Assembly: GCA_944371905.1 (NCBI GenBank)
Contig: CALVYA010000007.1
Span: 452 to 64,451, forward strand
DNA: 64,000 bases
DNA from: an uncultured Bacilli bacterium
Lineage (GTDB): Bacteria; Bacillota_I; Bacilli_A; RF39; UBA660
Reading direction: 5' to 3'
Shown: piece by piece, positions 1 to 54,169 of the stretch
How positions within the stretch are numbered: the first letter of the stretch is position 1
How the letters are laid out: each line of letters starts with the position of its first letter
Position numbers and translations under genes: made by a program
Notes under the pieces: generated by a model
Databases searched by the model: none
Seen by the model: the letters and a program-made list of their open reading frames with translations, nothing else
What the model was told of the DNA's origin: nothing

Positions 1-2240
1 AAATAATTGAAGATGAGAATAGTAATATCACCTATGAAATTAGTGGAGTAGAAGAAGGTTATACACTTTTGCAACCAGGAGAGACCAATACAGCCAAAGT
101 AACAATCAAATATAAAAGTGGAGTAACGAATATCAGTGAAACAAAAAAAGAATTAATGTTAACCTTTATTTATGTAGAAAATAGTGGGACAACAGGAGGA
201 AATTCAGGAGACTCCACATCAGATACAGAAAATGTAGTATATCAATTAGGAGATACCATAAGTACAGAAAATATAGTAAGAAATGATAATAGAAGCTTTG
301 GCAATTTGTTTTATGCTATATCTAGTAATGATACAAAAGATAACACTACTATTAACGTAATAACAGACCTTGTTTCACATACAGAAATGTCTGTTGAAAA
401 TATCGTAAATAGTGATACAATAAGTGTCGCATTTAAACCATTATCAGCTGGAGGGAGTGTCCCGGTTACTTATATAGATGTAACTAATCCAAGATTACCT
501 ACAATGGAAGAAATAGGATATATAGCTAATTTTAAATATGATAGTAGCAAAAATTATGATGGAGAAACGTTTGAGATGACTCAGGTCATGTTTAATACAA
601 ATACTTCTACTAATGATAAATTTTTAACATCCACAACAAAAGATGGAAAATATTATACTTATACGATCAATGGAACACAATTAACCATTCATTTAGTAGA
701 TGCTAGTGAAATAGTGTGGATAAGAGCTATCATTACTCTGAATAAAGAGGATTTAGATAAATATCAAAGATATCAGATAGGTGATTCTGTAGAATTAATA
801 GATGGTTCAAAATGGTATGTAACCAAAGATAGTGGAACAGGAAATGCTATGGTAACTTTAATCAGTGAAAATGGAGCATCAAGTAATGGAAGTGTATTAA
901 CTTATGGAACATATAGTAGAGGATTTGATACTAGTGGAAGTAATATATATAATCAATTTAGTAGTACAAATATAGGATACTATGTAAAGAATACAGTAGA
1001 AAGTTATATAAAGAACGCTATAAAAAGTAATGGTGGAAATGATGCTACTACCATAGCTAGATTATTAACAAAAGGGGAATATGATCGGATCACTAAAAAT
1101 GATACGACTATACCAAGTTGGTTAAAGATACCAGGGGCATTTTGGATGATGACAAATACAGGGAATAGTGTATATTATTTTAATGGGAGTAGTTTATCTA
1201 CAACCACAACCTTAACTTCTAATTATAAAGTAAGACCAGTCATAACGACATTAAAGAGTAATTTGAAAGATCCTATATATTTAGTGGATCAAATTTTAAA
1301 AGATAATACGGAAAGAGATGGTAATCGTTTAAATTTTGAATCTACTAGTGAAGAGTCAAAAACTAATGGTTTATATTATACTAATCGAAGAACGATAAAT
1401 AATAAAATAACATATTTTTTTAGAGGAGCAGTAGAGAATAATTATGTATATTTTGCAGGACTTTACTGGAGAATTATACGAATTAATGAAGATTCTAGTA
1501 TTAGATTGATTTATCAAGGAATTAATTATAATACAATGGGAACAGATGCTACGATAGGAACAGGTACGTTTAATAGTGAAACCATTGGGGATAATGCTTA
1601 TGTAGGATATATGTATGGGGCAGCAGGAAGCAATACTTATACTTTAACTCATGCCAACACTAATGGAAGTGTTATCAAAGAGAAACTAGATACTTGGTAT
1701 CAGAATAATTTATTAAGTTATTCTAGGTATATAGCAGATAGTGGATTTTGTGGCGATCGAAGTATAGCAGAAGAACCTGGGACTTGGGTTTCTTATGATA
1801 CTGCATTAGGATATGCTAAAAATGAAACTTATTATGGTCCATATAATAGAGTAGAGAATGATGCTAGACACCCGTTATTTGAATGTCCTCAAAAAAATGA
1901 TTGGTTTACTCTAAAAGGTAATACCCAAGGGAACGAAGCGCTTAATTATCCAATTGGATTGCTCTCTTTAGATGAAATTGTTTATGCAGGGGGGAGTTAT
2001 TCAATAGAAAATACTAGTTATTATCTTTATACAGAAGATTATTATTGGACTATGAGTCCTTATGAATTTAACGGAAATGGTTCTTATGTAGGAGTTGTAT
2101 CTTACAATGGTGCTATAACTCGTATTAGTGTAGATTCGCCAACTAGAGGTATTAGACCTGTTATTAATTTAAAATCTGATGTTGCAATAATAAGTGGTAA
2201 TGGAACCAGTTCTAATCCTTACGTTGTTAAGACAAATTAA
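1..2240 (+). CDS. Secreted surface protein, 5'-truncated by the window edge (paralog of 52532..54169)
   Basis: The frame is open from nt 3 to TAA at 2238-2240, so the TTG at 69 in the ORF track is not the true start. The first ~60 aa match the end of the N-terminal module of 6472..7902 and 52532..54169. The C-terminal ~330 aa (LYYTN..YFFRGAVENNYV..YWRIIRINEDSSIRLIYQG..DSGFCGDRS..YPIGLLSLDEIVYAGG..IRPVINLK..GNGTSSNPYVV) are colinear with 52532..54169. An extra module ending YKVRPVITTLK lies at about nt 760-1260. Confidence 0.75.
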   Translation, partial: IIEDENSNITYEISGVEEGYTLLQPGETNTAKVTIKYKSGVTNISETKKELMLTFIYVENSGTTGGNSGDSTSDTENVVYQLGDTISTENIVRNDNRSFGNLFYAISSNDTKDNTTINVITDLVSHTEMSVENIVNSDTISVAFKPLSAGGSVPVTYIDVTNPRLPTMEEIGYIANFKYDSSKNYDGETFEMTQVMFNTNTSTNDKFLTSTTKDGKYYTYTINGTQLTIHLVDASEIVWIRAIITLNKEDLDKYQRYQIGDSVELIDGSKWYVTKDSGTGNAMVTLISENGASSNGSVLTYGTYSRGFDTSGSNIYNQFSSTNIGYYVKNTVESYIKNAIKSNGGNDATTIARLLTKGEYDRITKNDTTIPSWLKIPGAFWMMTNTGNSVYYFNGSSLSTTTTLTSNYKVRPVITTLKSNLKDPIYLVDQILKDNTERDGNRLNFESTSEESKTNGLYYTNRRTINNKITYFFRGAVENNYVYFAGLYWRIIRINEDSSIRLIYQGINYNTMGTDATIGTGTFNSETIGDNAYVGYMYGAAGSNTYTLTHANTNGSVIKEKLDTWYQNNLLSYSRYIADSGFCGDRSIAEEPGTWVSYDTALGYAKNETYYGPYNRVENDARHPLFECPQKNDWFTLKGNTQGNEALNYPIGLLSLDEIVYAGGSYSIENTSYYLYTEDYYWTMSPYEFNGNGSYVGVVSYNGAITRISVDSPTRGIRPVINLKSDVAIISGNGTSSNPYVVKTN

Positions 2241-6279: not shown

Positions 6280-6465
6280 ATGTTAGAGAACGCTTTAGTA
6301 AAAGAAATCAATCATTTAGATAATCGAGAAGAGATGAATAAAATAGAAATTAATATGTATTCTGAATTAATAAAACAAAAACAAATGATAAATGATGATG
6401 AAGAAATAGCTAAAGAATTGTATGATCAATTAATTGATAAAAAAGATGAGAAAGATAGAGGTTAG
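6280..6465 (+). CDS. Small acidic helical protein, unknown function
   Basis: 61-aa ORF with an RBS, ending 6 nt before the next start. It is rich in E/D/K and I recognise no family. Confidence 0.45.
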   Translation: MLENALVKEINHLDNREEMNKIEINMYSELIKQKQMINDDEEIAKELYDQLIDKKDEKDRG

Positions 6466-6471
6466 AGTATT

Positions 6472-7902
6472 ATGTATAATAAGAAAAAAGTAATTATTAT
6501 TGTAATGATGATAGCAGTAGTATTAATGGTTGTAGTATATGCGGCACTTAGTACAAAGTTAATTATCAATGGTACTGGTAAAATTACTAGTACTTGGCAT
6601 GTGTTTTTTGAAAGCATTGAAACAGAGGAGTTAAGAGGGGAAGGTAGTAATAATGGGGATCCAATAATTACGGATACTTCTATTAAATTTAATGTAAATC
6701 TTAGAAAACCAGGAGATGGTATTACTTATTCTGCGGTATTAAAAAATGGTGGAAGTATTGATGCTATTATCAATAATATTGATGCATCTATGTCTGGTGC
6801 ATCTGTTGTTCAATATAGTGTAACGGGTATTAAAAAAGGCGAAAAATTACCAGCTGGTGCCAGTAAGACGATAACGATTACTGTAGATTTTGATCGTAAT
6901 GCTACTAGTATTCCTGCAGTTACTTCTAATGAGTTAATTGTTAATATAGAGTGTATTCAAGATGATGGTCAAGCGATACCAGAAGAGGATATTACAATTC
7001 AAAAAATTATGTTAAAGCCAGGGGATACTGCTTCTTCCTTTTTATCAGGACCAATTGCTAAATCATCTATAGAAAGTATTAATTTTACCAATACTAATGT
7101 AGTAGCATCTAATGCTATAGATAGTTGGGATGTATCTAGTGATGGTAAAGGTGGGGTAATGGCATGGTATACCGATAGTGACAATGATAATCTTTATGAG
7201 GTTACTATAGGTCAAAAAGGAGGCGTAGTGGCTAATAGTAATTCTAGTAATTTATTTAATGGATTATCCCAGTTAACGTCTATTAACTTTTCTCAATTTG
7301 ATACTTCTGAAGTTACCAATATGTCTGGCATGTTTCGGCACTGTTCTTCGTTAACTTCACTTGATGTTAGTAGTTTTAACACTAATAAAGTAACGGATAT
7401 GAGTTGGATGTTTTCTGGTTGTTCTAAGTTAACTAGTCTAGATTTAAGTAACTTTAATACTTCAAATGTAACAACGATGATGAGTATGTTTTATGGTACA
7501 ATTAAAATGAATGATTTAAATATCAGTAGTTTTAATACTAGTAAAGTGACAGATATGTCTGGAATGTTTTATTCTGCTCAAGGGATAGAAAATTTAAATT
7601 TAAATCACTTCGATACTTCTAATGTAACTACTATGGAAAGAATGTTTTCTGAGATGGCTTCATTAGTTAGGCTAGATATTAGTAGTTTTGAAACCCCAAG
7701 ACTTACTAATATGAATTATTTTTGTAATTATAATACCAAACTAAAATATATAGATATGAGAAAGATGAACATGGTAAGTATTGGTAGTCCAACAGAAGCT
7801 TTTGCCGGATTAGATAGTATTGAAGAAATTATAGTAAGAAGTACTGATGAACAATATATTATTAATAAAAGTCATGCTTCTTATCCAGTAATAGTAGCCT
7901 AG
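6472..7902 (+). CDS. Surface protein: TasA/camelysin-like N-terminal module plus DUF285/BspA-type leucine-rich repeats
   Basis: N-terminus is MYNKKK + hydrophobic helix + VVVYAALSTKLIINGTGKITSTW..LRKPGD..LKNGGSIDAIIN..NIECIQDDGQ, shared with 52532..54169. About 7 repeats of F.T(S/N).VT.M..MF...S.LTSLD.S lie at nt ~7255-7762 and match the DUF285 (PF03382-type) pattern. Confidence 0.8.
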   Translation: MYNKKKVIIIVMMIAVVLMVVVYAALSTKLIINGTGKITSTWHVFFESIETEELRGEGSNNGDPIITDTSIKFNVNLRKPGDGITYSAVLKNGGSIDAIINNIDASMSGASVVQYSVTGIKKGEKLPAGASKTITITVDFDRNATSIPAVTSNELIVNIECIQDDGQAIPEEDITIQKIMLKPGDTASSFLSGPIAKSSIESINFTNTNVVASNAIDSWDVSSDGKGGVMAWYTDSDNDNLYEVTIGQKGGVVANSNSSNLFNGLSQLTSINFSQFDTSEVTNMSGMFRHCSSLTSLDVSSFNTNKVTDMSWMFSGCSKLTSLDLSNFNTSNVTTMMSMFYGTIKMNDLNISSFNTSKVTDMSGMFYSAQGIENLNLNHFDTSNVTTMERMFSEMASLVRLDISSFETPRLTNMNYFCNYNTKLKYIDMRKMNMVSIGSPTEAFAGLDSIEEIIVRSTDEQYIINKSHASYPVIVA

Positions 7903-48688: not shown

Positions 48689-48907
48689 TTGATATTTATG
48701 GCTATTATTAAGAAGTAGTAATAAGTTATTTATTTAAAAGAGAGTTACTGGTTGGTGGAAAGTAATAAATGGAACTTATGAATTCATCTTATAAGCTTTT
48801 ATTAATAATAAACGTTATCTCGCGTTAAGAGACAATGAGTTATAGTTAAACTATAAAATAAGGTGGTACCACGGATATATTCGTCCTTAATTGGTATCGC
48901 TTTTTTT
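48689..48907 (+). promoter_or_regulatory. T-box riboswitch leader (Phe specifier UUC)
   Basis: AGAGA box at about 48739. Specifier-loop context gaa-UUC-a, with UUC at 48783-48785. T-box sequence aaataaGGTGGTACCacgg at 48856-48874. The terminator pairs gtggtacc (48863-70) with ggtatcgc (48893-900), followed by T7. It lies directly upstream of pheS. Confidence 0.85.
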
Positions 48908-49976: not shown

Positions 49977-52326
49977 AAAATTTGTTAGCGATTACGTAGA
50001 TATTGATGTAGATATTAATACTCTAGCAGAAGATATGACTAGTATTGGTAATGAATATGATTCTTGTGGTAAGTTAATTCCTGCTACTAAGTTAATAATT
50101 GGTGAAGTAATTGATTGTCATCCACATCCTGATAGTGATCATTTAAATGTTTGCAAAGTAGATATTGGTAGTGAAATCTTACAAATTGTGTGTGGTGCTC
50201 CTAATGTAAGAAGTGGTCTTAAAGTTATAGTAGCACTAACTGGAGCTGTATTACCAGGTGGTGTAATTAAAAAAAGTGTAATTCGTGGAGAAGAGTCTAA
50301 TGGAATGATCTGTGCAATTAGTGAATTAGGTCTTGAACATAAATTTTTAACTAGTAAAGATATTGATGGCATTCATGAATTACCACAAGATGCTAAAGTA
50401 GGATCTGATCCTATTAAGTATTTAGAATTAGATGACGAAGTAATTGATTTTGAATTAACATCCAATCGAGGAGATTTATTAAGTATTTTGGGGATGGCTT
50501 ATGAAATAGGGGCTTTATATAATAAAAAAGTAAAAGATATTGATTTAAGTTATGAAAGTACTGAGGAAGATGTTAATAATGTATTTAGCTTAGATATTAG
50601 AACTTCTAATTGTCCTTTATTTTTAGCTAAAAAAGTAACGAATGTAACAATCAAAGAAAGCCCGGCGTTCATTAAAAATAGATTAATAGCCTCTGGTATT
50701 AGGCCTATTAATAATGTTGTTGATATTTCTAATTATGTTATGTTAGAGACAGGTCAACCATTACATTATTATGATGCTAATCGATTGGGTGAGAAAATAG
50801 TTGTGCGTATGGCCAATGATGGAGAAGAATTAACTACTTTGGATGGACAAAAACGTATATTATCTAATAGTGATATAGTAATTGCTACCGATAAGGAAGC
50901 AGTGGGACTTGCTGGAGTTATGGGGGGACTTACTACTGAAATCGAAGAAGATACAAAAGATATTATTATTGAGTCGGCTATTTTTAATGCAACCTCTATT
51001 CGTAAAACTTCAAAGAAGGTATTAAGAAGCGAGGCAAGTAATCGTTTTGAAAAAGGACTTGATCCTAAAAGAACTTATATGGCTATAGAGAGAAGTTGTC
51101 ATTTATTAGAGAAATATGCGGATGCTACTATTGTTGGAGGGATAGTAGAATATAAAGATATGGATATTAATGATAGAAAAATAGATATTACATGTGAGAA
51201 AATTAATAAAGTATTAGGAATTACGATTCCAGAAGATGAAATATTATCTATTTTTGATAGACTAGGATTTACTTATACTATTAATAAAGATTTAATTACT
51301 GTAGTAGTACCTACTAGAAGAATTGATATTAGTATTCCTGAAGACTTAGTTGAAGAAGTAGGAAGAATCTATGGAATTGATAAAATTCAAGGTAAGAAAC
51401 TAGAGTTACCAGTAAAACCAGGTAATTGTAATAAAAATATAAGATTAATTCGTAATAAATTAGCAAGTCTTGGATTAAATGAGACATTAAGTTATTCATT
51501 AATTTCAGAAAGTGATGTTCATAAATTTACTAATGATGAATTTACTCATGTAAAAGTATTAGATCCAATGAGTGAAGATCGTAATACGTTAAGGTATAGT
51601 TTAATTCCATCTTTATTAAATATTTATAATTATAATAAAGCAAGATCTAACCACGATATTTCTATTTATGAAGTAGGAAAAGGGTTCTATAAAAAAGATA
51701 ATGAATATTATGAAGAAAATAAGCTAGCTATTTTAATGACTGGAAAGTATTTAGAAGGTATCTCTTCCATGAAAGTTGATTTCTATGTTATTAAAGGGAT
51801 TTTAGAAGAATTATTAGAATATTTAGGTTATAAAAATCGTTATAGTCTAAAAATAGATAATCTTCCAAGAGAATTTCATCCTGGTCAAAGTGCATCTATT
51901 GTTTTAAATGGTAACCCTATTGGTATTATTGGTAAATTACATCCAAGTGTTACTAAAGATGATATTTATGTAATAGAAATTAACTTAGATAAATTATTTA
52001 GTTTCAAAGTTAAGAGTATGCAATATAAAGAATTATCTAAATATCCAGCGATTGCTAAAGATATGGCATTCATTGTTAAAAAGAATATTATGGCAAGCGA
52101 AGTTATGGATGTTATCAAAAGAGCTTGTGGTAGATTACTAGTAGATATTTCTGTTTTTGATGTTTATGAAGGAGATAAAATAAATAGTGACGAAAAGTCG
52201 ATTGCCTTTACTCTTACTTTCCAAGATCAAAATAGGACTTTAAGTGATGAAGAGGTCATGGATTTATTTAGTAAAGCAATTAAAGAAGTTGAAGTTAAGC
52301 TTCATGGCGTATTAAGAGATAAATAA
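49963..52326 (+). CDS. pheT: Phenylalanine--tRNA ligase beta subunit
   Basis: MKLSRKFVSDYVD start, a tRNA-binding domain (VCKVDIG..QIVCGAPNV), B3/4 and B5 domains, and a C-terminal FDVYEG..KS.A. The start was moved to ATG 49963. Confidence 0.95.
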   Translation: MKLSRKFVSDYVDIDVDINTLAEDMTSIGNEYDSCGKLIPATKLIIGEVIDCHPHPDSDHLNVCKVDIGSEILQIVCGAPNVRSGLKVIVALTGAVLPGGVIKKSVIRGEESNGMICAISELGLEHKFLTSKDIDGIHELPQDAKVGSDPIKYLELDDEVIDFELTSNRGDLLSILGMAYEIGALYNKKVKDIDLSYESTEEDVNNVFSLDIRTSNCPLFLAKKVTNVTIKESPAFIKNRLIASGIRPINNVVDISNYVMLETGQPLHYYDANRLGEKIVVRMANDGEELTTLDGQKRILSNSDIVIATDKEAVGLAGVMGGLTTEIEEDTKDIIIESAIFNATSIRKTSKKVLRSEASNRFEKGLDPKRTYMAIERSCHLLEKYADATIVGGIVEYKDMDINDRKIDITCEKINKVLGITIPEDEILSIFDRLGFTYTINKDLITVVVPTRRIDISIPEDLVEEVGRIYGIDKIQGKKLELPVKPGNCNKNIRLIRNKLASLGLNETLSYSLISESDVHKFTNDEFTHVKVLDPMSEDRNTLRYSLIPSLLNIYNYNKARSNHDISIYEVGKGFYKKDNEYYEENKLAILMTGKYLEGISSMKVDFYVIKGILEELLEYLGYKNRYSLKIDNLPREFHPGQSASIVLNGNPIGIIGKLHPSVTKDDIYVIEINLDKLFSFKVKSMQYKELSKYPAIAKDMAFIVKKNIMASEVMDVIKRACGRLLVDISVFDVYEGDKINSDEKSIAFTLTFQDQNRTLSDEEVMDLFSKAIKEVEVKLHGVLRDK

Positions 52327-52467
52327 GAGAAAAGATTGTAGAAATACAGTCTTTTTTGTTGAAATTTATAGGGTAGAGGAGTGCTTAAAAGAGAAAGTTT
52401 ATTTGGTAGAATAAAATTATAGAATATGATACCCTGTCAAAAAGTGTAAGGACCCTAAAAATTTTTC

Positions 52468-52498
52468 TTGAAAATTTCCTGGGGAGGGGGGGTATAAT
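52468..52498 (+). promoter_or_regulatory. Promoter of 52532..54169 with a G4-A-G7 tract in a 19-nt spacer
   Basis: TTGAAA (52468-52473), spacer atttcctggggaggggggg (52474-52492, 19 nt), then TATAAT (52493-52498). RBS ggagtga and ATG 52532 follow. Confidence 0.6.
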
Positions 52499-52531
52499 GT
52501 ATATAGGATAAACTAAAACGGAGTGATAAGG

Positions 52532-54169
52532 ATGTATAGGAATAAGAAGAAAATAGTGATAGGAATACTATGTATAGTAGTATTAATCATGGTAGTAGTG
52601 TATGCAGCATTTAATACAAGATTAACGATTAACGGAACAGGAAATATCACAAGTACTTGGAATATAGAAATAACTTCTATTACTAGTAGTATTACAGGAA
52701 CAGCTTATAATATAACAGAACCAACCTATAGTGGAACGAATGCAACTTTTAATGCAGGATTAAAGAAACCGGGAGATAAGATAGAATATAATATTACAAT
52801 TACCAATAATGGAAGTATAGATGCTATTATTAATACAGTAGATATAAAAACAACAGGAAGTTATGTTATTTTATACACAGTAGAAGGAATACAGAATCAA
52901 GAGAGATTAGCAAGTAAAGGTAGTAAGACATTTAAAATCATAGTAGAGTTTGATAGGGAAGCTACTAGTATACCAAGTGATACTACAAAAGAAATCATAA
53001 TGAATATCGAGTGTATTCAAGATGATGGACAACAATTAACTCCAAGTGATCCTAATATTGATAATGAAGATACTGGATTAACACTAGTAAATGCTATATT
53101 AAGAGATAACCAAGCTCAAAGTGATGAGAGTATAGATTTTAGCAAAACGAGTGAAGAAGATGGAACGAAAGGATTATATTATACTAATAAAAATACAGAG
53201 GATAATAAAACAACGTATTATTTTAGAGGAGCAGTAGAGAATAACTATGTTAAATTTGGTGTGTATCAACAAAAGCTTTCTAAATATAGAGGATATTATT
53301 CTAGTACAATGACAGGAGGACATTTTGAATATGATACATTAAGCGAGTGTCAAAATGCTAGTAGTTTTAATCAAAGTTGTACAGAGGTTGTATACGCTAA
53401 TTCAGGAGATCCAATGTATTGGAGAATTGTAAGAATCAATGAAGATGGAAGTATTAGATTAATCTATCAAGGGATAGCTCCAAATATAATAGAAGATGGT
53501 GCAACCATAGGTGAATATAACTTTAATATTGATAATAATGATAATGCCTATGTAGGATATATGTATGGAACACCAGGAAGTAGTAGTTATGAGGAGACAC
53601 ACGCCAATATCAATGATAGTATAATCAAGACAGCATTAGATACTTGGTATGATGAGTATTTATTGAGCTATGCTTCTTATATGGCAGATAGTGGATTCTG
53701 TGGCGATAGAAGTATCTATAAAGAGGAAGGAACAGGATTAGGGTATGAAAAGAAAAGAACATTTTACGCTTCTTATAATAGATTAGAAAATATAAATCAA
53801 CCACAGTTCATATGTTTGCAAAGTAACGATTTATATACAATAAAGAATAGTGTAAAAGGAAATAAAGCCTTAGATTATCCAATAGGATTAATTACTGCGG
53901 ATGAAATAGTTTATGCAGGTGGATCAAGGAGATTAAATGAAAGTTGCTATTTGAATATCGATAGTACTTATTTTACAATGACTCCTTTTTCTTACGACTA
54001 TGGTACTTACATCTATAGTATTGATAGTGGGACACTTTTGGATTCCAAGCCGACAACTGGTGTACTGAATGTCGCGCTTGCTCGTCCTGTTATTAATTTA
54101 AAGGCAACAGTAGAAATCTCTAGTGGAGATGGAACTAGTAGTAATCCTTATGTGATAAAAACTAGTTAA
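52532..54169 (+). CDS. Surface protein: TasA/camelysin-like N-terminal module plus conserved C-terminal domain (paralog of 1..2240)
   Basis: MYRNKKK + helix + VVVYAAFNTRLTINGTGNITSTW..LKKPGDKIEYNITITNNGSIDAIIN..NIECIQDDGQ. The C-terminal domain reads LYYTNKNT..YYFRGAVENNYV..YWRIVRINEDGSIRLIYQG..NAYVGYMYG..DSGFCGDRS..YPIGLITADEIVYAGG..ARPVINLK..GDGTSSNPYVIK. Confidence 0.8.
   Translation: MYRNKKKIVIGILCIVVLIMVVVYAAFNTRLTINGTGNITSTWNIEITSITSSITGTAYNITEPTYSGTNATFNAGLKKPGDKIEYNITITNNGSIDAIINTVDIKTTGSYVILYTVEGIQNQERLASKGSKTFKIIVEFDREATSIPSDTTKEIIMNIECIQDDGQQLTPSDPNIDNEDTGLTLVNAILRDNQAQSDESIDFSKTSEEDGTKGLYYTNKNTEDNKTTYYFRGAVENNYVKFGVYQQKLSKYRGYYSSTMTGGHFEYDTLSECQNASSFNQSCTEVVYANSGDPMYWRIVRINEDGSIRLIYQGIAPNIIEDGATIGEYNFNIDNNDNAYVGYMYGTPGSSSYEETHANINDSIIKTALDTWYDEYLLSYASYMADSGFCGDRSIYKEEGTGLGYEKKRTFYASYNRLENINQPQFICLQSNDLYTIKNSVKGNKALDYPIGLITADEIVYAGGSRRLNESCYLNIDSTYFTMTPFSYDYGTYIYSIDSGTLLDSKPTTGVLNVALARPVINLKATVEISSGDGTSSNPYVIKTS

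What the first reader, a model, noticed from the sequence alone, without database searches (positions are those of the whole stretch)
52468..52498. G7 homopolymer inside a 19-nt promoter spacer of a surface-protein gene: candidate phase-variation switch
Seen in sequence: TTGAAA is followed by atttcctGGGGAGGGGGGG and then TATAAT, about 34 nt upstream of ATG 52532. The spacer counts 19 nt, and 7 consecutive G occupy its 3' end. I saw no other intergenic G-run of this length in this very AT-rich window.

Established knowledge: sigma-70-type promoters work best with 17 +/- 1 nt spacers. Homopolymer tracts in spacers are classic slipped-strand phase-variation devices, as in Neisseria, Haemophilus and Mycoplasma surface-protein promoters.

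Inference: loss of one or two G would bring the spacer to 18/17 nt and raise expression. The sequenced state may therefore be a low/OFF state of a phase-variable surface antigen.
Basis: partly seen in the sequence, partly recalled or inferred. Interest (0 to 1): 0.6.

Follow-up and report, generated by a model that had tools for sequence, protein, structure and literature searches.

The report
Poly-G promoter switch, surface-protein family
The G-run sits between the two halves of a gene promoter. It is a slightly decayed copy of a poly-G tract found in front of many genes of one large, unnamed surface-protein family in uncultured gut Bacilli, where the intact tracts change length from sample to sample, as known phase-variation switches do.

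Summary
An RBS and the ATG at 52532 follow.

A G7 run alone is not rare. The 11-of-12 G block is, and the same layout recurs across the gene family:
- About half of the promoters fetched by protein similarity alone carry a G9-G12 tract, or a point-interrupted one, directly 5' of the -10.
- 14 of the 15 G>=8 runs in 278 kb of related loci lie at that position.
- G-free paralog promoters have 17-18-nt spacers. G-tract promoters have 17-20, most often 19.
- In all five sets of same-locus contigs with a pure tract, the tract length differs. In the two near-identical pairs it is the only indel in about 3 kb.
- Plain or decayed promoters were identical across 2-7 assemblies.

The window's copy is interrupted (G4-A-G7). 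It showed no length change in consensus contigs of at least five chicken-gut samples, so it is probably a slowed or locked, low-expression variant.

No raw reads or transcription start data were available, so switching within a population and the ON/OFF assignment remain inferred.

This is a new member of a known kind, comparable to porA poly-G, opc poly-C and Mycoplasma vlp poly-A.

The parts
52334..52357 (+). Weak terminator-like hairpin (GATTGT-6 nt-ACAGTC) plus T6 after pheT. It marks the upstream edge of the repeated cassette.
   Evidence: Read from the sequence. The terminator scan did not flag it because it has fewer than 3 G-C pairs. Contig depth rises about 10-fold from 52352 onward.
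52352..52467 (+). Upstream part of the multicopy promoter cassette. It includes a conserved box at 52431-52456 (ACCCTGTCAAAAAGTGTAAGGACCCT; core TGTCAA-N4-TGTAAG).
   Evidence: Nearly the same sequence lies upstream of paralogs L111-L113. The box is also present in L001, L009/L090/L091 and L092/L093. Its function is unknown.
52468..52473 (+). -35 hexamer TTGAAA
   Evidence: The same or similar hexamers (TTGAAA, TTGCCA, TTGCAA, TTGATT) sit at the equivalent place in 40 family promoters. In several loci the hexamer directly follows the upstream gene's terminator T-run.
52474..52492 (+). 19-nt promoter spacer atttcctGGGGAGGGGGGG
52481..52492 (+). Interrupted poly-G tract G4-A-G7, a 12-position tract. 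The residual G7 at 52486-52492 is the only part still likely to slip.
   Evidence: Paralogs and orthologs carry pure G9-G12 at this position. Most related copies in chicken-gut runs read G instead of A at 52485.
52493..52498 (+). -10 hexamer TATAAT
52505..52506 (+). Predicted transcription start, inferred as 7-8 nt after the -10. The predicted 5' UTR is about 26 nt.
   Evidence: Inference from the geometry only. The one metatranscriptome had no contig over the 5' end.
52520..52525 (+). Ribosome-binding site GGAGTG
   Evidence: A conserved cGGAG lies 7-10 nt before the start codon across the family.
52532..54169 (+). Gene for a 545-aa predicted membrane-anchored extracellular protein: N-terminal helix, Ig-like beta-sandwich, and a large conserved C-terminal domain of unknown function.

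Best explanation
The element is the promoter of one member of a multicopy gene family. Depth ratios suggest roughly 8-14 copies per genome. The family encodes N-terminally anchored, probably cell-surface proteins of uncultured low-GC gut Bacilli.

In about half of the family's promoters, the 3' part of the -35/-10 spacer is a poly-G tract of 9-12 nt that directly abuts the -10.

Proposed mechanism:
- Slipped-strand mispairing during replication adds or removes single G's.
- This moves the spacer between 17-18 nt and 19-20 nt. The 17-18-nt lengths are those used by the G-free paralog promoters and are presumably active. The 19-20-nt lengths are presumably weak or off.
- Each paralog's transcription therefore switches independently and heritably.

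The window's copy is a derivative in which one G of a 12-position tract has become A (G4-A-G7), with a 19-nt spacer. This interruption probably lowers the slippage rate strongly. This copy is best read as a slowed or nearly locked allele in a low-expression state. Loss of one G from the remaining G7 would still give an 18-nt spacer.

Shown:
- the anatomy;
- conservation of the tract's position;
- tract-length polymorphism at the same locus;
- the spacer-length contrast with plain promoters.

Inferred:
- slippage as the cause;
- the effect of tract length on transcription;
- surface exposure of the protein;
- reduced mutability of the interrupted tract.
For: 1. Anatomy. TTGAAA, 19 nt, TATAAT, 33 nt, ATG, with an RBS.

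2. Survey not biased by the tract. Loci were fetched by protein similarity, not by the tract. Among the metagenome loci with usable upstream DNA, 13 have a G-rich tract abutting the -10, 11 have plain AT-rich spacers and 2 have no promoter.

3. Position. 14 of the 15 G>=8 runs in 278 kb of related loci (both strands) lie in that spacer position on the gene's strand.

4. Spacer lengths.
- G-tract promoters: 17 nt (3), 18 (9), 19 (13), 20 (3).
- Plain paralog promoters: 17 (6), 18 (5), plus one doubtful 22.

5. Same-locus polymorphism in all five sets with pure tracts.
- L004 G10 / L037 G9.
- L092 G11 / L093 G12, where the tract is the only indel in 3090 nt with 3 mismatches. Logan contigs at this locus read G12 in X1 and G11 in X9 and X26.
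- L094 G12 / L095 G10.
- L096 G11 / L097 two bases shorter, the only indel in 2703 nt.
- L111 G11 / L112 G12 / L113 G12.

6. Controls.
- A plain-promoter locus is identical in 7 assemblies, including a T9 run.
- Another plain locus is identical in 3 assemblies.
- The decayed tract GGGAGGAGGGG (18-nt spacer) is identical in L009, L090 and L091.

7. Multicopy cassette.
- Contig depth over the promoter and 5' end is 8-14 times that of the unique flanks in six runs, and about 4 times in a seventh, low-depth run.
- The window and paralog L092 are 94-100% identical from -50 to +550, but only 28-80% identical in the 3' half.
- L092's unique flank has the same depth as the window's pheT flank in four runs, so both are probably in one genome.

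8. Surface prediction.
- AF2 model with mean pLDDT 86.6, showing an N-terminal helix (residues 2-30) followed by a beta-sandwich.
- Weak choice-of-anchor-D and DUF11 hits.
- The window paralog at 6472-7902 shares the N-terminal 176 aa and carries PARCEL surface-protein repeats (E = 4e-55).
Against: - No raw reads were available. All runs were held only as assembled contigs. Heterogeneity within a population, which defines phase variation, was not seen.
- Differences of one G between short-read assemblies can arise from homopolymer errors or library PCR slippage. Only L094/L095 and L096/L097 differ by 2 nt.
- The window's own tract was invariant in exact contigs from X1, X2, X3, X7 and X8, and in a near-exact contig from X6. 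The identical interrupted tract also precedes a gene whose product is only 62% identical (L001). Both argue that this copy does not switch often.
- No transcription start or expression data exist for any tract length. The metatranscriptome gave only two exact contigs, both inside the CDS.
- The most common assembled state is 19 nt. That fits 'most copies off', but it could also mean that 19 nt with a G tract is functional.
- G-richness persists in the decayed tracts. This could mean selection for G-rich sequence itself rather than for spacer length.
Confidence: 0.6

Rival explanations
1. Locked relic. This copy once had a switching G12 tract, but the G-to-A change at 52485 has stopped the switching. 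It now acts as a fixed, weak 19-nt-spacer promoter with no phase variation.
For: - The tract was invariant in consensus contigs of at least five samples.
- The identical G4-A-G7 promoter precedes a different gene (L001). It also occurs in another upstream context in X6.
- More strongly decayed tracts (L009/L090/L091, L029, L030) all sit at a fixed 18 nt, which shows that tracts do decay into stable promoters.
Against: - A G7 run is still within the range that slips in known contingency loci (my own knowledge, not tested here).
- Contigs hide minority variants.
- A promoter locked at a poor spacer length would be expected to decay further or be lost.
Confidence: 0.22
2. Static G-rich promoter element. 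The G block next to the -10 is recognised by a regulator or a sigma-factor region, or acts through DNA structure. Length differences between contigs are neutral or technical.
For: - The G block is conserved at one position in contigs whose record or run names point to chicken, rabbit and human gut sources.
- G-richness survives in interrupted tracts.
- Eight of the eleven pure G11 promoters with the CC(C)TA-type spacer have the same 19-nt spacer.
Against: - Tract length differs in all five same-locus sets and is the only indel in near-identical 3-kb pairs.
- A T9 run and the plain promoters do not vary across 7 assemblies.
- About half of the paralogs work with ordinary AT-rich 17-18-nt spacers and the same hexamers, so no G element is needed.
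Confidence: 0.1
3. A different promoter drives the gene, such as TTGGTA-16-TATGAT (52403-52430) or TTAAAA-16-TAGAAT (52385-52412). The G tract would then lie in the 5' UTR.
For: The scan lists both as 9/12 matches. The region 52352-52467 is conserved among the chicken-gut copies.
Against: - Three matches were found against 2.0 +/- 1.5 expected in shuffles.
- These sites are missing in L009 and L092, whose homology to the window starts downstream of them.
- In several loci the -35 of the G-tract promoter directly follows the upstream terminator, which leaves no room for another promoter.
- No Rfam family matches the intergenic region.
Confidence: 0.05
4. Chance G-run or sequencing artefact, such as the poly-G produced by two-colour Illumina chemistry.
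For: A lone G7 occurs in 38% of simulated windows.
Against: - The 11-of-12 G block occurs in 0.3% of simulations.
- The same architecture recurs in dozens of independent assemblies at one promoter position.
Confidence: 0.02

Closest known systems
Neisseria meningitidis porA promoter (poly-G between -35 and -10) and opc promoter (poly-C)
   Same: A homopolymeric G/C tract lies inside the spacer of a sigma-70-type promoter of a surface-protein gene. Tract length sets the spacing and so the expression level. See van der Ende 1995 and Sarkari 1994, cited as refs 24 and 32 in PMC5084427. Tract lengths of about 9-12 are similar; the porA figures are from my own knowledge.
   Different: Those are single-copy outer-membrane protein genes of a Gram-negative pathogen. 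Here the organism is an uncultured Gram-positive-type gut commensal lineage, the gene is one of many paralogs, and the protein family is unrelated. No expression data exist here.
Mycoplasma hyorhinis vlp genes (poly-A tract in the promoter)
   Same: Both are multigene families of variable surface proteins in which each gene has its own promoter homopolymer. Insertions and deletions in the tract switch each gene independently (PMC10502178). In both, the promoter and 5' region are conserved and the rest of the protein diverges. Both hosts are low-GC Bacilli or Mollicutes-type organisms.
   Different: The vlp tract is poly-A, not poly-G. Vlp proteins are lipoproteins with tandem repeats. This family has no lipobox and no C-terminal tandem repeats. 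The genes seen here are scattered behind housekeeping genes (pheT, Zip, RecO and others), not clustered.
Mycoplasma mycoides Vmm and Haemophilus influenzae hifA/hifB (TA repeats in the promoter spacer)
   Same: A simple-sequence repeat inside the promoter spacer changes the -35/-10 distance (PMC10502178; van Ham 1993, ref 18 in PMC5084427).
   Different: Those repeats are dinucleotides, which change the spacing in 2-nt steps. Here the tract is a mononucleotide run.

Membership tests
Promoter-spacer homopolymer contingency locus (transcriptional phase variation by slipped-strand mispairing) | A homopolymeric tract lies between the -35 and -10 hexamers of the gene's promoter | tested here: met
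   The tract is G4-A-G7 within a 19-nt spacer between TTGAAA and TATAAT. Pure G9-G12 occupies the same place in paralogs and orthologs.
Promoter-spacer homopolymer contingency locus (transcriptional phase variation by slipped-strand mispairing) | Tract length differs between otherwise near-identical copies of the same locus | tested here: inconclusive
   Met for relatives with pure tracts: five of five same-locus sets differ. Not met for the window's own interrupted tract, which was unchanged in contigs of at least five samples.
Promoter-spacer homopolymer contingency locus (transcriptional phase variation by slipped-strand mispairing) | Frequent, reversible length heterogeneity within one population or clone | not testable with these tools
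   Every run was held only as assembled contigs, which drop minority variants. An X4 contig that stops exactly at the last G of the L092 tract is only suggestive.
Promoter-spacer homopolymer contingency locus (transcriptional phase variation by slipped-strand mispairing) | Expression level depends on tract length | not testable with these tools
   Indirect evidence only: G-free paralog promoters have 17-18-nt spacers and G-tract promoters have 17-20 nt. The metatranscriptome gave no 5' ends.
Promoter-spacer homopolymer contingency locus (transcriptional phase variation by slipped-strand mispairing) | The controlled gene encodes a surface-exposed or host-interaction product | tested here: inconclusive
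   Prediction only. The model shows an N-terminal helix plus an Ig-like sandwich. There are weak choice-of-anchor-D and DUF11 hits. A paralog with the same N-terminal module carries PARCEL repeats. No solved relative exists.
Mycoplasma Vlp-type variable lipoprotein system | Several paralogs per genome share a conserved promoter and 5' region and diverge in the remainder | tested here: met
   Depth ratios of 8-14 times in six of seven runs. Identity profile of 94-100% from -50 to +550 against 28-80% further 3'. Three paralogs lie in the window itself.
Mycoplasma Vlp-type variable lipoprotein system | Lipoprotein signal peptide (lipobox Cys) and tandem-repeat C-terminal region | tested here: not met
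   In the alignment, the residue before the only N-terminal Cys is L or M, not G/A/S, and that Cys is not conserved. The C-terminal part is a conserved globular domain, not a set of repeats.

The most novel reading that the evidence does not exclude
Uncultured, low-GC gut Bacilli of chickens, rabbits and humans may carry a lineage-wide system for varying their cell surface in many combinations.
- Each genome would hold about ten paralogs of an unannotated surface-protein family. The family has more than 7,000 clusters at 50% identity.
- Each paralog would sit behind its own poly-G promoter-spacer switch, on a homogenised promoter and 5' cassette.
- Point-interrupted tracts, such as the one in this window, would be evolutionary 'locks' that fix a paralog's expression level.

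If true, Mycoplasma- or Neisseria-style contingency promoters would be a common strategy of commensal gut Firmicutes, not a speciality of pathogens.
Probability: 0.5. Interest if true: 0.7.

Novelty: new member of a known kind. Interest (0 to 1): 0.55.

Why it matters
Homopolymer switches in promoter spacers are textbook devices of a few pathogens.

Here the same device appears as a conserved feature of a very large, unannotated protein family in uncultured gut commensals. Each genome holds several independently switchable copies.

If confirmed, this would have three consequences:
- It would give a handle on how these uncultured bacteria vary their surface under immune or phage pressure.
- It would mark the family as surface-exposed and under diversifying selection.
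- It would warn that metagenome assemblies of these lineages break, and report arbitrary tract lengths, at these promoters.

The interrupted tracts offer a natural series for studying how contingency loci decay into fixed promoters.

Tried and rejected
- **Raw-read check of tract-length heterogeneity.** Three run searches returned only runs held as assembled contigs. The decisive test could not be done.
- **Transcription start from a metatranscriptome.** X25 gave only two exact contigs, both inside the CDS, and none over the 5' end.
- **RNA element.** Rfam gave no hit in 52327-52531. The only hit in the region was the T-box before pheS.
- **Function by sequence or fold.** No Pfam or NCBIfam hit passed its cut-off. 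There was no PDB sequence match. The fold search gave only generic Ig-like matches, none with E <= 0.001. The first AF2 model, from 17 sequences, was poor (pLDDT 52). The 111-sequence model was good.
- **SipW/TasA-type signal peptide.** I suspected this from the motif 'YAAFNT'. No NCBIfam hit supported it, so I dropped the idea.
- **Exact-protein look-up of the window's product.** It is not on record.
- **Illumina poly-G artefact, chance, and alternative upstream promoters.** All were considered and rejected (see the rival explanations).
- **Literature.** No paper on this family, or on phase variation in these lineages, turned up in the held library.

Full report
**1. The observation**

The sequence reads cTTGAAAatttcctGGGGAGGGGGGGTATAATg.
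- The -35 hexamer TTGAAA is at 52468-73.
- The 19-nt spacer is at 52474-92.
- The -10 hexamer TATAAT is at 52493-98.
- GGAGTG at 52520-25 is the RBS.
- The start codon is the ATG at 52532. The ORF list offers a GTG at 52523, but that lies inside the RBS. The family alignment starts at MYRNKKK, which corresponds to the ATG.

This G7 is the only G or C run of 7 or more in the window. A lone G7 is not remarkable: 0.26-0.46 are expected per window, and 38% of Markov simulations contain one. The real unit is a block with 11 G in 12 nt, which occurred in 0.3% of simulations.

**2. Context**

- Upstream lie pheS and pheT, with a T-box leader at 48695-48891. pheT ends at 52326 and is followed by a weak hairpin plus T6.
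- Downstream is a 545-aa ORF, then genes for ylbD-like and ylbE-like proteins and a long 746-aa ORF that I did not annotate.
- The window is 24-31% GC.
- The DNA occurs mainly in chicken-gut metagenomes.
- Relatives of the protein come from MAGs labelled 'uncultured Bacilli bacterium' and from Clostridium sp. CAG:710.

**3. The gene product**

- No Pfam or NCBIfam model reaches its cut-off. There are only weak Ig-like, DUF11 and choice-of-anchor-D hits over residues 52-136.
- The family is very large. At least 4,769 clusters at 90% identity match with E <= 1e-5 among the 8,000 candidates scored. 7,449 clusters at 50% identity match with E <= 1e-3, and 882 with E <= 1e-30.
- The C-terminal domain (residues about 295-543) also occurs repeatedly inside giant proteins of up to 4,905 aa.
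- An AlphaFold model built from 111 sequences has mean pLDDT 86.6. It shows an N-terminal helix (residues 2-30), a beta-sandwich (about 45-165) and a large mixed domain.
- The PDB gave no sequence hit and only generic Ig-like fold matches.
- The window holds two more paralogs. One runs off the window start and ends at 2240. The other, at 6472-7902, shares the first 176 residues and then carries PARCEL surface-protein repeats (E = 4e-55).
- 'Surface protein' is therefore a reasonable prediction, not a demonstrated fact.

**4. The tract is a family feature**

I fetched 80 metagenome loci and 8 genome loci by protein similarity only. Exact-protein look-ups added more. For the 42 loci with usable upstream DNA I tabulated the promoter.
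- 28 have a G-rich tract directly 5' of the -10. The forms are:
  - pure G9-G12, for example TTGCCAaatccctaG11TATAAT, TTGATTttcaatG9/10tgTATACT and TTGAAAttttcctG11/12TATAAT;
  - point-interrupted versions: GGGGAGGGGGGG in the window and L001, GGGGTGGGGGGG in L006, GGGTGGGGG in L029, and GGGAGGAGGGG in L009, L090 and L091.
- 12 have ordinary AT-rich spacers with the same kind of hexamers.
- 2 have no recognisable promoter.
- In 278 kb of these loci, both strands, there are 15 G>=8 runs. Fourteen of them occupy exactly this position on the gene's strand.
- In several loci the -35 directly follows the terminator of the upstream gene. The G-tract promoter is therefore the gene's promoter, and the tract is not transcribed.

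**5. Spacer lengths**

Plain promoters of paralogs have spacers of 17 nt (6) or 18 nt (5), plus one doubtful 22. G-tract promoters have 17 (3), 18 (9), 19 (13) or 20 (3). The strongly decayed tracts all sit at 18. This contrast is what a length-based switch predicts. The polymerase in these organisms uses normal 17-18-nt spacing. The G tracts move the spacing between that range and 19-20 nt.

**6. Length polymorphism at the same locus**

Every set of contigs that encodes the identical (or, for L004/L037, a closely related) protein in the same genomic context, and carries a pure tract, differs in G number.
- L004 G10 / L037 G9.
- L092 G11 / L093 G12. Logan contigs at this locus read G12 in X1 and G11 in X9 and X26. 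The X4 contig stops exactly at the last G.
- L094 G12 / L095 G10.
- L096 G11 / L097, which is two bases shorter and creates GATAAT with a 17-nt spacer.
- L111 G11 / L112 G12 / L113 G12.

In the two near-identical pairs, the tract is the only indel. L092/L093 align over 3090 nt with 3 mismatches. L096/L097 align over 2703 nt with 4 mismatches.

Controls:
- A plain-promoter locus is identical in seven assemblies, including a T9 run.
- Another plain locus is identical in three assemblies.
- The decayed GGGAGGAGGGG promoter is identical in three contigs.

Caveat: a difference of one G between short-read assemblies can be technical, and consensus contigs do not show heterogeneity within a sample.

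**7. A multicopy cassette**

- In the chicken-gut runs, contig depth rises from about 10 over pheT to 100-200 from 52352 onward. Many contigs break there and continue into different flanks.
- At the paralogous L092 locus, the ratio of 5'-cassette depth to unique-flank depth is 8-14 in six runs and about 4 in a seventh, low-depth run.
- L092's unique flank has the same depth as the window's pheT flank in four runs. Both loci are therefore probably in one genome.
- Window and L092 are 94-100% identical from -50 to +550, but only 28-80% identical further 3'.
- The complete intergenic region of the window recurs upstream of L111-L113.
- A 98.7%-identical copy of the window's gene sits in a different upstream context, with homology starting at window position 52424 (L009).
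- The promoter, 5' UTR and N-terminal module thus behave as a homogenised cassette in front of divergent C-terminal halves.

**8. The window's own copy**

- Most related copies in the runs read G at 52485, which would make the tract a pure G12. The window has A there.
- Exact contigs without gaps cover the tract in X1, X2, X3, X7 and X8. A near-exact contig covers it in X6, in another upstream context.
- L001 carries the identical interrupted tract in front of a gene whose product is only 62% identical.
- At the consensus level, therefore, this allele is stable and has been inherited or copied unchanged. The pure tracts are not stable in this way.
- I conclude that it is a slowed or locked derivative with a 19-nt spacer, presumably weakly expressed.
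- Two exact metatranscriptome contigs inside the CDS show that this gene, or a near-identical one, is transcribed at some level. They do not show from which tract state.

**9. Mechanism and rivals**

- Best explanation (0.6): this is a poly-G contingency promoter of a multicopy surface-protein family, and the window's copy is an interrupted allele.
- Fully locked relic (0.22).
- Static G-rich promoter element with neutral or technical length noise (0.10).
- A different, upstream promoter (0.05).
- Chance or artefact (0.02).

The evidence for and against each is given in the Rival explanations section. What is missing is read-level heterogeneity, a mapped transcription start, and expression as a function of tract length.

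**10. Comparison with known systems**

- In mechanism it resembles the N. meningitidis porA (poly-G) and opc (poly-C) promoters, cited in PMC5084427.
- In its multigene layout it resembles the M. hyorhinis vlp genes, which have a poly-A tract in each promoter (PMC10502178).
- It is not a Vlp-type lipoprotein system. There is no lipobox and no tandem-repeat region.
- I found no paper describing this family or this device in these lineages. The held library is incomplete, so this is not proof of absence.
- I file it as a new member of a known kind.

**Verdict**

The class of mechanism is well supported for the family, but this copy is a decayed tract that may switch rarely or not at all. Interest is 0.55.

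Noticed in passing
window 52431-52456: A conserved box, ACCCTGTCAAAAAGTGTAAGGACCCT, lies about 12-37 nt upstream of the -35. Its core is TGTCAA-N4-TGTAAG, a direct repeat with 10-nt period. It is shared by the chicken-gut copies L001, L009, L090-L093 and L111-L113, but not by the human-type or rabbit-type promoters. It may be a regulator binding site.
   Followed up: partly
window 6472-7902 (small ORF upstream at about 6281-6466): This paralog shares the N-terminal 176 aa and has PARCEL repeats instead of the usual C-terminal domain. It has no G tract and follows a small ORF, so it may be part of an operon. L051 has the same arrangement.
   Followed up: partly
window 1-2240: A third family member is cut by the window start. 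Its C-terminal domain is 47% identical to the gene of interest. It contains a G6 run at 1989-1994 inside the coding sequence.
   Followed up: no
window 48695-48891: A T-box leader lies upstream of pheS/pheT (113 bits, E = 3e-25).
   Followed up: yes
window about 53270-53420 (protein residues about 245-295): The window's protein has an insertion of about 50 aa containing cysteines (…YQQKLSKYRGYYSSTMTGGHFEYDTLSECQNASSFNQSCTEVVY…). Its closest paralogs lack it, but more distant family members have it.
   Followed up: no
L084:267-277: This is the only G>=8 run in the related loci that does not abut a -10. A G11 is followed by CAAATAGTAAC, about 150 nt upstream of the estimated gene start.
   Followed up: no
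L097 (about 460-470) compared with L096: The sequence is two bases shorter at the junction of tract and -10 (G10 followed by ATAAT). This can be read as G9 plus GATAAT with a 17-nt spacer. It may be a real variant or an assembly error.
   Followed up: no
L114:1-107: The same protein as in L111-L113 is preceded by G10 and a completely different upstream sequence that starts at the tract. This may be recombination at the tract or a chimeric assembly join.
   Followed up: no
Loose ends: Further paralog promoters in the same chicken samples have G-poor, apparently decayed spacers, such as TTGCAAaattaggagatGGGGGTATAAT and TTGCAAaaatgctagaggtaGGTATAAT. Both have about 16 nt. This suggests a series running from pure tract to fixed promoter.
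   Followed up: partly
Family-wide: The C-terminal domain (query residues about 295-543) recurs up to 22 times in giant proteins of 2,000-4,900 aa. It is a widespread, uncharacterised extracellular module with no PDB relative.
   Followed up: no
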